Position numbers and translations under genes: made by a program
Part shown: piece after piece, positions 25,914 to 42,855 of the stretch
How positions within the stretch are numbered: the stretch's first letter is position 1
How the letters are laid out: each line of letters starts with the position of its first letter
Notes under the pieces: generated by a model
The model's database searches: none
What the model was told of the DNA's origin: nothing
Seen by the model: the letters and a program-made list of their open reading frames with translations, nothing else
Assembly: GCA_964016885.1 (NCBI GenBank)
Contig: OZ024743.1
Location: 120,094,001 to 120,158,000, forward strand
DNA from: Eledone cirrhosa
Taxonomy: Eukaryota
DNA length: 64,000 nt
Direction of reading: 5' to 3'

Positions 25914-28900
25914 GAATACACAAGAATCAAAGCTATGTTAGAACATTTAATTGCTGACAATTGTTTCTTCCAAGCCTAGGCTTGGTGTCTTCGGAGCATT
26001 ATTAATAATGTTTTTACATATAATCAGCCTCCTATTCTGCTGAAGAGTTATACAGATACATATTGTTCCAGGTTTCACATCCATTACATATGTCACGATG
26101 TACTTGCGTTGAGTGTTTGTTCTAGTAATGGCTTGTAATGTAAAGTAACTTAGTTTTATTTAGTCCGTACCGTATACTACATTTGTATAGCAGGGAGAAT
26201 TTTCTACTGTTTAATTCACGGAAGTGGGAATGGAAGTAAGGGGAGCTAATGCGTAAGGGGAGGTAACTAGCTCATTATAATAATAATTAAACTCATTGTT
26301 CTAAGGGACTTTATATAGTGTTATAATTGAGGGCCTAATATAGAAACTATATATTTTAAGGTATCATTATAAAGTTGACTATCAAGTATTATAAAGTGCC
26401 ATAATTGAGTTTCCCATATAAATTGTTATATATTTATATTATTTAATCTTAGATACAGTCTACCCTCCCAAAATATATCAGAGGTTTTGCTAGATTGCTG
26501 TCTACCTAGTATATGGTAAGCTATGTAATACCGTATAGCTGTTTGCATGGTAAAGTAGATATATCTCTAGAGTAAATAAACGCATCCCTTATATACAATG
26601 TTATTAATGTTAATCCATACATTTAATTATAGATGTATACATAATTCATTGTTCCATATTGCATTTAAGTTAGATAAATCCCTTATGTTACTACATTAAT
26701 CCTATATATACAATGATATTAATTTTTACATTTAATTGAAGATGTATATATAATTCATTGTTACGTTTAATATTTCAAGTTTATCCAACTTATATTTCCA
26801 TCACTATATAATTATAAGTAATCTAATTTTACTATATTAAGGGTATAGAGTTATAGGTCGGCTGAATTGTGTAGAGGAAAGGGTGGATCAAAGAGTGTGG
26901 TGCAGTGGTTCAATGCAAGCCCTAAAGGTGAAGTGCTAAGGGAGGTACTGGGTTCAAAACTGACATTGCTATATACTAGGTTTAAAGCTTTGGAAAGAGT
27001 GTCGGAAGCGGTGCTGGTACGATGCAAACACTTCCGATTTTTTATTAAGGAGGTTAAGATTCAAAAATATTATAGTATGGGTCTCTAGAAGACAGAGGTT
27101 ACAACATTTATTAGGTGGTTTATACGATGCTGCCCTACCTACTAGTTCCCATTGAAGTGTATATGATCTATTCTTAGTTTTTAAATAGTGTATGTAGCTA
27201 GATAGTGAAGTGGAGTTAGATAGATTGTGCTTTCTGAAAGAGTGAAGGTTGTATCTCGTCTTGAAGCCGTTCGAAGTGGAGCCTGTATAGGTTTTAGAAG
27301 AGTTGATATTGTTGACCGTGCATAAGTAAATGATGTCCTTGATTAAGCAGTTGTTACCTAAAGGGCAGGTTCTATTAGATCTACAGTTACATTTATTTGG
27401 GGTTATATCTCGTCGGTTATTATGCTGCGTAGAAGTCTGGTTGCTAGGTATTGCATTAGGGCTATGATGGTTGTCGGTCCCAATGTTATTGATTTCAATA
27501 TTGTTACTACTATTATTACTATTGCTATTAGGGTTAGTAGTTATTAATTTGTTTCGAAAGTTTCCCTCTTGTGTTTTAATTTGATGGAGATAAGTATTAA
27601 TTTTTCTTTTATTACGACTAGCTATATGGTATGCTATGTGCTTTTCTAGGTAGTAACTCAATCTCATTACTATGGCCTGATTTAGCTAATGCCTGATTGT
27701 AGTACTATGAATTATTGCTAAATATGGTTTAGTTATAAGATCGATTAGAGATTCTGTTAGAAATACTTTTAGTGATAGAGTTTAAAATGGATCTAGGGTG
27801 GTTCGACTTGGTGTCTAAATAAATCAGTTTTTCGTTAGGTTTATGGTAGGGTATATATACTTTAGAGTCGACATAAAGGGTAGCATCAAGGAAGTTAACA
27901 TTTTTAGTGTTTTTGTCAATGGTGATAGTTAAGTTATAGTTTTTGAAGGTTTTATGTACAAGTTTCCTTGTTCTTTCTATATTAAATTTGTTATAGTCTA
28001 TAAGGAGTAGTGCATCATCGCGGTATAAACCACCGTTGAGGTATGGTAGGTCCTTATGGATTTCATTTAGTAAATATAGGCCCACCAAATTAGTGACCTG
28101 CGCCGAGCCACTAGACGCCATAGTTATATCAAAGTTGTTATGCGTATCCTTGCGGGTCCATAACTGATCCTCAAATGTAATTATGGTTTTACGGGCCGCA
28201 AGTATATCAATTTGGGATCTAGTCAGGTCACTGTTGTTCATGGCCATAATGAGTGCCTTATTTAATAGGATGGGGGAAATAGAGGTGTAGTATGAATTGA
28301 TATCAAACTGAATGAATTTTTTATTTTTGTTCTCTTTAATTTCTCTAAACCATTCAATAACTTCACCCGTATTTCCCCACTGTTTAAGGAATACTTTGTG
28401 CTTAATCTGCGGGATGATTTTATCTAAAATGTTCTTACTGATAATGCCAATGTCAGATTTGGAAGGGCAGATTAGTCTTATCGAAGGGTTACTAATGAAA
28501 TCTTCCTTATGGTCCTTCAGAGAGAATCTTGGGGTTAGGGGTGTATGGCTGAGTATGCCTCTGAAGTCCCAGTTTAGACACTATACTATGGCCCTCCGAA
28601 TAAATATCTTTTAGGTTTTTAGTAGTAGTCTTCTTATAGCTCCTGTGTAGCTCTTTATATATAAATTGTCTATATATATCATAATCTAGGCTATATATAT
28701 TATTAGTTTTATCTGCATGTACAATAATTTTATTATTTGTATTCAATCCTTTAATGGTGGAATTAAGTTTGCTTAAGAAGGTGTTGTTTCTATTACGATG
28801 ATTTGTGTATTTAATGCTCTTAACTAGTTTTATTAGGTCATTTTCAAACGAGTTTAATAGTGTGTTGTGAGGAGGGCTTCTAAAAGTTTTAAAGCCGAAG

Positions 28901-29273
28901 GCCTCAAACTTGTTAGTATCATCGGTTTTGTTAGATCTGGTTTTTTTTTCATAATGGAATGTCCTCCATCTCACTCTATTGATAAAGGAGTTGACACTAT
29001 TGATCAGTAATTTTTCGTATGTATCTCTGGATGGTATTGGTATGTTCTTAGCAGACATAGGGAGGTAGTTTTTGATCAGCATACTGTTAATTTAATGTAT
29101 GTTAGCTCAACAGAGAGCAGCAGTTAATAATATTAAGGATACTATTTATAGTTATGTATATACTATATACAACTATAAACAGGTAAGGACAGTAATTTAT
29201 TACTACCTTATTACCAGTAAGATAAATAGCTCAATATAAGAACATCATTTGTTATACAGAGCAGTAATATAGA
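25914..29273 (-). mobile_element. PLE array unit 1 (RT + GIY-YIG; linker deletion and 3'UTR deletion)
   Basis: ORFs 28507-29082 (SAKNIPIP...RVRWR), 27729-28247 (GLYRDDAL, NFLD) and 26969-27667 (CNCR..CPL..CL, IIY...YTG, CNLCLLE). Left end abuts (AG)n. Confidence 0.92.
25952..25998 (-). ncRNA. Type I hammerhead, U4C variant (family A), left terminal pLTR
   Basis: Reverse complement TGCT-CCGAAGA-CA CCAAGC ctag GCTTGG AA-GAAAC aatt GTC-AGCA. Confidence 0.75.
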
Positions 29274-42041: not shown

Positions 42042-42047
42042 GAGGTG

Positions 42048-42855
42048 AATTATTATTATAATGAGCTAGTTACCTCCCTTACGCATTAGCTCCCCTTACT
42101 TCCATTCCCACTTCCGGGTATTAAACAGTAGAAAATTCTCCCAGCTATACAAATGTAGTATAGGGTACGGACTAAATAACACTAAGTTACTTTACATTAC
42201 AAGCCATTACTAGAACAAACACTCAACACAAGTACATCGTGATATATGTAATGGATGTGAAACCTGGAACTTTCTTATTCTACACACATTCGATCTACAC
42301 TGAAAATATTTCAGCATTGCAACCACCATAATATATTAACACACCTGCTTTATGTGCTTGTATTTTTTATGCAACACCCAGCATTCATATATGCTTGATA
42401 CTTTTGCCTGTTCAATTGCTTTATGTATGACTAACGCACGTACTGTCTCTTTAATTTTATTTATGTACTAGACGCTCTTGTATTATCTGTCACATGCTCC
42501 ACCAAAAGCTTTTAATTGTAATTTTGAATCATACCCATCACACACTGTTGTCCACAATATGTATGTATCTGTATAACTCTTCAGCAGAATAGGAGGCTGA
42601 TTATATGTAAAAACATTATTAATAATGCTCCGAAGACACCAAGCCTAGGCTTGGAAGAAACAATTGTCAGCAATTAAATATTCTAAAATAGCTTTGATTC
42701 TTGTGTATTCTATATTACTACTCTGTATAACAAAGGATGTTCTTATATTGAGCTATTTTTCTTACTGATAATAAGGTAGTAATAAATTACTGTCCTTACC
42801 TGTTTATAGTTGTATATAGTATATACATAACTATAAATAGTATCCTTAATATTAT
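42048..42855 (+). mobile_element. Inverted terminal pseudo-LTR of the PLE array
   Basis: Reverse complement of the unit junction region (equivalent to ~33155-33960), ending in (TA)n. Confidence 0.9.
42626..42672 (+). ncRNA. Family A hammerhead in the inverted pLTR
   Basis: Read directly: TGCTCCGAAGACACCAAGCCTAGGCTTGGAAGAAACAATTGTCAGCA. Confidence 0.75.

What the first reader, a model, noticed from the sequence alone, without database searches (positions are those of the whole stretch)
25914..42855. 17-kb Penelope-like tandem array with a U4C-variant hammerhead at every unit boundary
Seen: five head-to-tail units (HHR spacing 3358, 4022, 3548 and 3553 bp) and an inverted terminal pLTR. All six HHR copies carry CCGAAGA instead of CTGANGA, a palindromic stem II (CCAAGCCTAGGCTTGG) with an unpaired base, and a palindromic loop III (ACAATTGT). 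Both array ends lie in microsatellites, and the left end runs ~40 nt past the cut site. Known: PLE pLTRs carry minimal HHRs and form partial tandems or inversions. Inference: a read-through transcript could be cut into unit-length RNAs. An array this long is unusual. The CxC..C..C and CxxC motifs around GIY-YIG tentatively suggest the Hydra PLE clade.
Basis: partly seen in the sequence, partly recalled or inferred. Interest (0 to 1): 0.72.

Follow-up and report, generated by a model that had tools for sequence, protein, structure and literature searches.

The report
Dead Penelope array, slow-core hammerhead
This is a broken jumping-gene insertion that likely grew from four to six pieces by later DNA mis-pairing, and its self-cutting-RNA motif has an odd core letter shared by about 5,900 copies in the genome, likely giving a slow cutter that the element is copied across uncut.

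Summary
The array and six CCGAAGA hammerheads are real, but the length did not come from ribozyme-cut unit RNAs. Units 1, 2, 5 and the inverted arm differ equally (2.5-3.4%), and units 1-5 share a stop codon absent from 14 of 14 relatives: likely one insertion from an already broken RNA, with ends at the family's two fixed sites (+43, +187 past the cut). Units 3 and 4 are chimeras joined mid-ORF (unit-2 front, unit-5 back), i.e. later DNA duplications. The element fits the Hydra clade of Penelope-like elements. U4C is lineage-wide: 5,891 C4 cores against 108 U4 and 101 G5A (symmetric CpG decay), also in a young subfamily with intact 832-aa frames. Stem II and the dimer loop III change in compensated steps. 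Three other Hydra-like families here, 53 of 53 metagenome hammerheads and 26 published rows have U4. Five two-armed insertions carry G5A in both arms, so cutting looks dispensable for copying. Cleavage is untested. The scan noted C4 cores before, in this genome (e1-10319565) and in others.

The parts
25818..25912 (.). (TA)19(GA)30 microsatellite at the left insertion boundary
   Evidence: TC runs next to the short end recur in other copies
25913..29270 (-). Unit 1: terminal unit, keeps the GIY-YIG region, 332-bp and 291-bp deletions, frameshift at codon 195 and stop at 465; its 3' end is the family's short fixed end (+43)
25952..25998 (-). Hammerhead H1 (type I, C4 core, predicted cut 25956|25955)
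26969..27685 (-). Unit 1 linker and GIY-YIG remnant with CNCRSNRTC (CxCx5C) and CNLC (CxxC); C-terminal CxH decayed to YQH
   Evidence: intact CQH in sister frame
29271..33292 (-). Unit 2: the only near-complete unit (4,022 bp), several frameshifts and stops
29310..29356 (-). Hammerhead H2 (C4 core; private changes in and beside stem I)
30712..31201 (-). 489-bp linker/endonuclease block present in units 1 and 2, absent from units 3-5
   Evidence: weak Pfam GIY-YIG match E=0.0085, below cut-off
33293..36840 (-). Unit 3: youngest DNA-level duplicate; 5' half like unit 2 (4 of 2,000 sites differ), 3' half like unit 4 (1 of 1,419); joint about 34744-35310
33332..33378 (-). Hammerhead H3 (C4 core)
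36841..40393 (-). Unit 4: chimera of unit-2-type 5' half and unit-5-type 3' half; crossover about 38292-38500
36880..36926 (-). Hammerhead H4 (C4 core)
40394..42041 (-). Unit 5: 5'-truncated pseudo-LTR with the 489-bp deletion and a later 438-bp deletion
40433..40479 (-). Hammerhead H5 (C4 core, C>T in stem II)
42042..42855 (+). Inverted 5'-truncated arm ending at the family's long fixed end (+187)
42626..42672 (+). Hammerhead of the inverted arm (C4 core, predicted cut 42668|42669)

Best explanation
This is a broken Hydra-clade Penelope-like insertion, likely written in one event from an already defective, uncut RNA by an active relative's reverse transcriptase and endonuclease, then likely lengthened by two unequal DNA crossovers; its C4-core hammerhead is shared by the whole lineage and is predicted to be a slow ribozyme that needs a second copy or the element's protein. 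Shown: the anatomy, shared lesions, chimeric units, fixed ends, genome-wide counts and compensated changes. Inferred: step 1, the endonuclease nicks a (TA)n site and reverse transcription starts at two internal RNA sites, +43 and +187 past the hammerhead cut site, giving one long arm (unit 1, unit 2, truncated unit 5) and one inverted arm; step 2, a crossover between unit 5 and unit 2 makes unit 4 and a second one makes unit 3; step 3, the weak core is tolerated because copying runs across the intact motif, while some rarer cleavage or folding role keeps the structure under selection.
For: Equal distances among units 1, 2, 5 and the inverted arm, 2.55-3.45%; at 1,248 three-way sites 16/18/11 private changes, 8 shared by all, 6 shared by two. 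Stop at codon 465 in units 1-5 and in 0 of 14 relatives covering it; 2-nt loss at codon 195 in units 1-4 and in 0 of 9 relatives. Unit 4 against unit 2: 11 of 2,000 sites differ in the 5' half, 45 of 1,419 in the 3' half; against unit 5: 13 of 490 and 5 of 982. One short and one long end in 16 of 17 scored arm pairs, 8 further pairs skipped as too unlike; ORF-complete copies run through the cut site and none of the boundaries listed falls at +1. Core counts 5,891 C4, 108 U4, 101 G5A, 18 G17, reversed controls 0. Nine subfamily rows: 98.5% of 135 cells paired, stem II pair G-C/G-U/A-U and loop III A-U/G-U/G-C series, slid controls 26-45%. Monomer MFE is not the hammerhead; loop III self-duplex -6.4 and -11.1 kcal/mol. 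Both-arm G5A in 5 two-armed insertions and 1 pLTR pair of 7 close pairs fetched. Frangieh 2024 (PMC11167929): internal start sites make the tail, hammerhead mutants do not affect insertion in vitro, cleavage needs the protein.
Against: No cleavage or RNA data. In a mutational scan all single mutants of the CUGA turn had low activity (PMC9901934), so C4 plus a 10.1.11.1 mismatch may be nearly dead. The covariation rests on two pairs in nine related rows (20 of 500 shuffles reach it; relatedness inflates this), and the count patterns required the other core letters. Six two-way shared sites show template switching or gene conversion that the simple history does not explain. Both-arm G5A could come from arm-to-arm conversion. 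The youngest duplication differs by only about 0.2% and could be an assembly join of two haplotypes; short-read contigs could not test it.
Confidence: 0.7

Rival explanations
1. The motif no longer cuts at all; its fold is kept as a binding or start signal for the element's protein, or drifts under weak constraint.
For: G5A templates appear to have been copied into both arms; U4 revertants were never amplified although CpG decay supplies them (108 against 101 G5A); 10.1.11.1 varies among C.A, C.U, C.C, A.G; hammerhead mutants insert normally in vitro.
Against: Position 17 moved only between cleavable letters, C and A, with G17 at 18 copies; loop III stays self-complementary through AAUU, AGUU, AGCU, which fits dimer catalysis; a natural viroid U4C variant keeps enough activity in vivo (PMC3088659).
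Confidence: 0.3
2. All five units were written at once by rolling-circle copying of a hammerhead-cut, religated unit RNA (the reading the first reader points to; model proposed in PMC4209133).
For: Units are exact head-to-tail permutations and share template lesions; young multi-unit insertions 99.7-99.97% alike exist; the inverted arm switches type across an interval that holds the cut site.
Against: Distances are not equal (0.28% to 3.2%) and units 3-4 switch parent in mid-ORF; H1 differs from H2/H5 at four polarised sites, so the template held two distinct hammerhead copies; across 17 arm pairs the arms differ no more downstream of the cut (11 of 679) than upstream (26 of 1,016). A circle could still have served for the original two-unit arm.
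Confidence: 0.1
3. One of the middle units is an assembly artefact (two haplotypes joined in tandem).
For: The latest duplicated 3.5-kb segment differs at only about 6 sites and one 5-bp indel.
Against: The two copies are not identical; the older crossover shows about 0.5% divergence on both sides and a deletion private to unit 5, so at least four units plus the inverted arm are needed.
Confidence: 0.15

Closest known systems
Hydra clade of C-terminal-endonuclease Penelope-like elements (Craig et al. 2021, PMC8557442; seen: passages, sections 6 and 11, supplement Files S1/S2 and passages of the protein file and Fig. S7)
   Same: Single ORF, RW(R/K), DKT, CxCx5C linker, GIY-YIG without CCHH, CxxC and CxH, (TA)n target, partial tandems with inverted arm and tail, 3' hammerhead often mismatched at 10.1.11.1.
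   Different: All 26 Hydra rows of File S2 have CUGA; this lineage has CCGA. Unit 4.0-4.2 kb against under 3 kb; tail 144-164 bp against 30-40 bp. Hydra-1_Obim (2,507 bp) has a different, canonical hammerhead.
Minimal dimeric hammerheads of metazoan PLEs (Cervera and de la Pena 2014, PMC4209133; parts 1-2 of 4 read)
   Same: Type I, short stem I, long stem II, 2-bp stem III with palindromic loop, predicted to work as dimers with low activity.
   Different: That text reports C3U/G8A and a conserved G10.1-C11.1 pair; U4C does not appear in the parts read, and G10.1-C11.1 is absent here.
Natural U4C viroid hammerhead (as cited in Perreault et al. 2011, PMC3088659; passages and section 8 read; the primary paper, which I take to be Ambros and Flores 1998, is not held)
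   Same: Same core change; much reduced in vitro, sufficient in vivo.
   Different: A rare viroid variant in a full hammerhead; here it is fixed in thousands of copies of a minimal retrotransposon hammerhead.
PAc Poseidon element of Anolis (Frangieh et al. 2024, PMC11167929; parts 1-2 of 4 read)
   Same: Two internal start sites define the tail; uncut RNA is the substrate; AT-rich target.
   Different: Different clade, canonical core; in vitro data exist there and none here.

Membership tests
Penelope-like elements (EN+) | Telomerase-like reverse transcriptase | tested here: met
   Model of the intact sister frame (pLDDT 79) has telomerases as its eight best PDB matches, best E=1.5e-8; YRDD motif in the array. 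Pfam and PDB sequence searches found nothing for the RT.
Penelope-like elements (EN+) | GIY-YIG endonuclease in the same ORF, C-terminal | tested here: met
   IY..YIG/YVG with R, H, E, N in units 1-2 and the sister frame; Pfam E=0.0085, below cut-off.
Penelope-like elements (EN+) | Partial tandems, pLTR, inverted truncated arm, tail at one end | tested here: met
Hydra clade | RWK motif and DKT in place of DKG | tested here: met
   RWR and ADKTNN in the array; RW(K/R) and DKT across alignment A1; definition
Hydra clade | CxCx5C linker, CxxC and CxH, no CCHH | tested here: met
   CNCRSNRTC and CNLC in unit 1; CxH intact in the sister frame, decayed to YQH in units 1-2
Hydra clade | Insertion into (TA)n | tested here: met
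Hydra clade | Falls inside the published Hydra clade in an RT tree | tested here: inconclusive
   The published reference proteins were only read, not aligned; they match by eye. My quick tree holds unnamed relatives only.
Hydra clade | Canonical CUGANGA hammerhead (a described trait, not the clade's basis) | tested here: not met
   CCGAAGA in 6 of 6 here and 5,891 copies
Hammerhead ribozyme, type I minimal | Three-way fold with stems I-III and NUH cut site | tested here: met
   98.5% of cells paired in nine subfamily rows; GUC or GUA
Hammerhead ribozyme, type I minimal | Invariant core C3 U4 G5 A6 G8 A9 G12 A13 A14 | tested here: not met
   U4 is C; the other eight are kept. No Rfam match.
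Hammerhead ribozyme, type I minimal | Self-cleavage | not testable with these tools
   No RNA or bench data
Non-LTR retrozyme | Short non-coding tandem unit with a hammerhead | tested here: not met
   Units are 3.4-4.0 kb ORF remnants; definition from bioRxiv 10.64898/2026.07.22.740005, part 1 of 5

The most novel reading that the evidence does not exclude
U4C is a selected brake: the lineage keeps its RNA uncut long enough to be reverse-transcribed across the hammerhead and cuts only when two motifs pair or the element's protein binds, and the inverted arm of this locus, which changes parent copy across the cut site, is a fossil of one such cut-and-rejoin event.
Probability: 0.15. Interest if true: 0.72.

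Novelty: new variant of a known kind. Interest (0 to 1): 0.43.

Why it matters
What hammerheads do in Penelope-like elements is open. This lineage is a natural experiment: an active family that fixed a change in the catalytic turn, kept the fold and the dimer loop by compensated steps, never amplified the canonical revertant, and seems to copy G5A templates. Young intact copies make a direct test possible (C4 against U4 against G5A, with and without protein). It also shows that searches requiring CUGA miss thousands of motifs. The array itself is ordinary genome history and a caution: long Penelope arrays can grow by DNA recombination and are not evidence of rolling-circle copying.

Tried and rejected
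Rfam found no hammerhead. Pfam and PDB sequence searches did not recognise the RT; the fold search did. Sequencing runs: no RNA holder listed; short-read contigs and RAD reads gave no piece spanning a unit, so copy number is untested. A palindromic stem II as a dimer device was rejected: younger subfamilies have a non-palindromic loop. 5' ends at the cut site were looked for in 41 loci (L032-L070, L091, L092) and not seen. A general cut-site junction between arms was tested on 17 pairs and not supported. A G5A sub-lineage was considered; by eye the subfamily mix of G5A copies resembles that of C4 copies, not pursued. The tree is a quick search without bootstrap or named references. Literature: 'hammerhead'+'U4C' gave one paper, 'hammerhead'+'CCGA'+'Penelope' three, seen as listing only for two of them; other searches. 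Two papers that may bear on novelty were not held: Ambros and Flores 1998 and Lunse et al. 2017 on dimeric PLE hammerhead variants (title seen only as a search term hit in reference lists). Supplements of Cervera 2014 and Perreault 2011 were not opened and may hold C4 examples.

Full report
Observation. The six motifs, spacings, loop III palindrome, inverted arm and left end are as described. In element sense (minus strand) the parts are unit 1 25913-29270, unit 2 29271-33292, unit 3 33293-36840, unit 4 36841-40393, unit 5 40394-42041 (5'-truncated) and an inverted arm 42042-42855. The motif reads stem I UGCU/AGCA, core CCGAAGA, two opposed mismatches, stem II of 6 bp, GAAAC, loop AAUU, GUC. 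Rfam does not match it. The stem II palindrome holds in 5 of 6 copies and the right flank is only a short TA-rich run.

What the element is. The window lies in a 3.0-Gb genome. All array frames are broken, but an RT fragment finds 150 scored matches among 38,056 candidates, many with an open 832-aa frame at 85% identity. That sister frame has RWR, DKT, YRDD, CNCx5C, a GIY-YIG core without CCHH, CxxC and CxH, the traits that Craig et al. give for Hydra (PMC8557442 section 11); their Hydra proteins match by eye. Its predicted fold is closest to telomerases. The best named database relatives are molluscan, 40-43% identical. Pfam and PDB sequence searches were blank for the RT.

How the array arose. 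Units 1, 2, 5 and the inverted arm differ by 2.55-3.45% in all pairs, but unit 3 and unit 4 differ by 0.28%. Unit 4 matches unit 2 in its 5' half (11 of 2,000 sites differ) and unit 5 in its 3' half (5 of 982), with the opposite comparisons near 3% (13 of 490; 45 of 1,419); it carries unit 5's 489-bp endonuclease deletion but not its 438-bp deletion. Unit 3 is nearer to unit 2 in front (4 of 2,000) and to unit 4 behind (1 of 1,419). The joints are in mid-ORF, about 38292-38500 and 34744-35310, roughly 2 kb from any cut site. A unit cut out by hammerheads would have its joints at the cut sites, so these two units are best read as unequal crossovers in DNA (inference). The four older parts look born together: at 1,248 three-way sites there are 16, 18 and 11 private changes, 8 shared by all and 6 shared by two. 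A stop at codon 465 is in units 1-5 and in none of 14 relatives covering it; a 2-nt loss at codon 195 is in units 1-4 and none of 9. The template was therefore already defective and was likely moved in trans. The six two-way sites are not explained by this simple history.

Ends. Copies of the lineage end at two fixed places, about +43-47 and +187 (this subfamily) or +208-211 (younger ones) past the cut site, usually into (TA)n. Of 17 scored opposite-arm pairs 16 have one of each; 8 more were skipped as too unlike. The array has +43 at left and +187 at right. This matches the two internal start sites shown for an Anolis element, where uncut RNA is the substrate and hammerhead mutants insert normally (PMC11167929). 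ORF-complete copies continue upstream through the cut site; no listed boundary is at +1 in 41 loci.

How unusual the length is. Among 65 exact matches to this subfamily's motif only this locus has more than two. In younger subfamilies, of 20 stretches chosen for having several motifs, one locus has five hammerheads and three intact frames over 15.5 kb (99.7-99.97% alike), one has four in 9.2 kb and one has three in the same direction 4.7 kb apart. These were picked, so they give no frequency.

The C4 core. With the same flanks, the genome holds 5,891 C4 motifs, 108 U4, 101 G5A and 18 with G at 17; reversed controls gave 0. C4-G5 is a CpG, and the equal U4 and G5A counts spread over all subfamilies are what decay alone gives; no canonical subfamily was amplified. 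Across nine subfamily rows the fold is kept: 98.5% of 135 cells pair, one stem II pair runs G-C, G-U, A-U, loop III runs AAUU, AGUU, AGCU and stays self-complementary, and the cut triplet moves from GUC to GUA; 20 of 500 shuffles reach this, and relatedness weakens the test. The monomer's lowest-energy fold is not the hammerhead, and loop III pairs with itself, as for the dimeric minimal hammerheads of PMC4209133. C4 is derived: the sister family in this genome (55-60% identical, joined at SH-aLRT 100 in a quick tree) and two more distant ones have U4; 53 of 78 metagenome relatives show a hammerhead and all 53 have U4, with 2 of 78 chance calls on the opposite strand; all 26 Hydra rows of Craig's File S2 have U4. 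A mismatch at 10.1.11.1 is common in Hydra (U.U in 22 of 53).

Does it cut? Untested. For: the compensated changes, and a viroid U4C variant that is weak in vitro yet sufficient in vivo (PMC3088659). Against need: of the 100 G5A places listed, 7 close pairs were fetched; 5 are two-armed insertions with G5A in both arms, 1 is a pLTR pair and 1 is a DNA duplication. About one such pair or fewer is expected from independent decay at 1.7% (my arithmetic), so G5A RNA was likely copied, unless arms convert each other. Of 3 close U4 pairs 2 are two-armed. A mutational scan found low activity for all single changes in the CUGA turn (PMC9901934, passages), which counts against both G5A and C4. I put residual, assisted cleavage at about 0.6.

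One loose end. H1 differs from H2 and H5 at four polarised sites (-93, -90, +12, +19); the inverted arm is H1-like at the first two and H2-like at the last two, switching within an interval that holds the cut site. A cut-and-rejoin, a template switch or gene conversion would each give this. Across 17 arm pairs there is no excess of differences downstream of the cut (11 of 679 against 26 of 1,016), so it stays a single unexplained case.

Earlier notes of this scan report C4 cores in Hydra elements of this genome and of others; my counts were made before I saw them and agree for this lineage. One note says several related families here have C4; the three other families I checked have U4, so those must be other families or subfamilies of this one.

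Verdict. The array is a decayed Hydra-type insertion enlarged by DNA recombination. The lineage-wide U4C hammerhead is a real variant that I did not find described for Penelope-like elements in the searches named, with two relevant papers not held. New variant of a known kind; interest 0.43.

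Noticed in passing
window 43007-43588 (minus), with a 95% copy at 53149-53668: 3' fragment of a LINE-like (RTE-type by recalled motifs) ORF with a weak DUF6451 match, just right of the array.
   Followed up: no
window 1227-1806, 4259-4886, 6801-7250, 9002-9202, 12886-13093, 17140-17343, 50108-50312, 59399-59804 and others: An abundant roughly 200-bp dispersed and tandem repeat ending in microsatellites; may be the family with a rearranged hammerhead that earlier scan notes describe.
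   Followed up: no
G000:C23:27743600-27759300 (L213, L214): Young 15.5-kb two-armed insertion with five C4 hammerheads and three intact 832-aa frames, 99.7-99.97% alike.
   Followed up: partly
L201-L205, L200: Insertions with G5A in both hammerheads, suggesting that RNA with an impaired core was reverse-transcribed.
   Followed up: partly
L071-L114: Three further Hydra-like families with long open frames (about 915, 893 and 749 aa) and U4 hammerheads; two have GAAAU/AUA palindromic stem III that my scanner first missed.
   Followed up: partly
window 42570-42690 against 25935-26050 and 29290-29410: The inverted arm changes from H1 type to H2 type across the hammerhead.
   Followed up: yes
window 62783-64000: 45-bp minisatellite of at least 27 copies running off the window end.
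   Followed up: no
window 45175-45479, 13202-13428, 58031-58197: Fold-back inverted repeats, the first 98% perfect over 305 bp.
   Followed up: no
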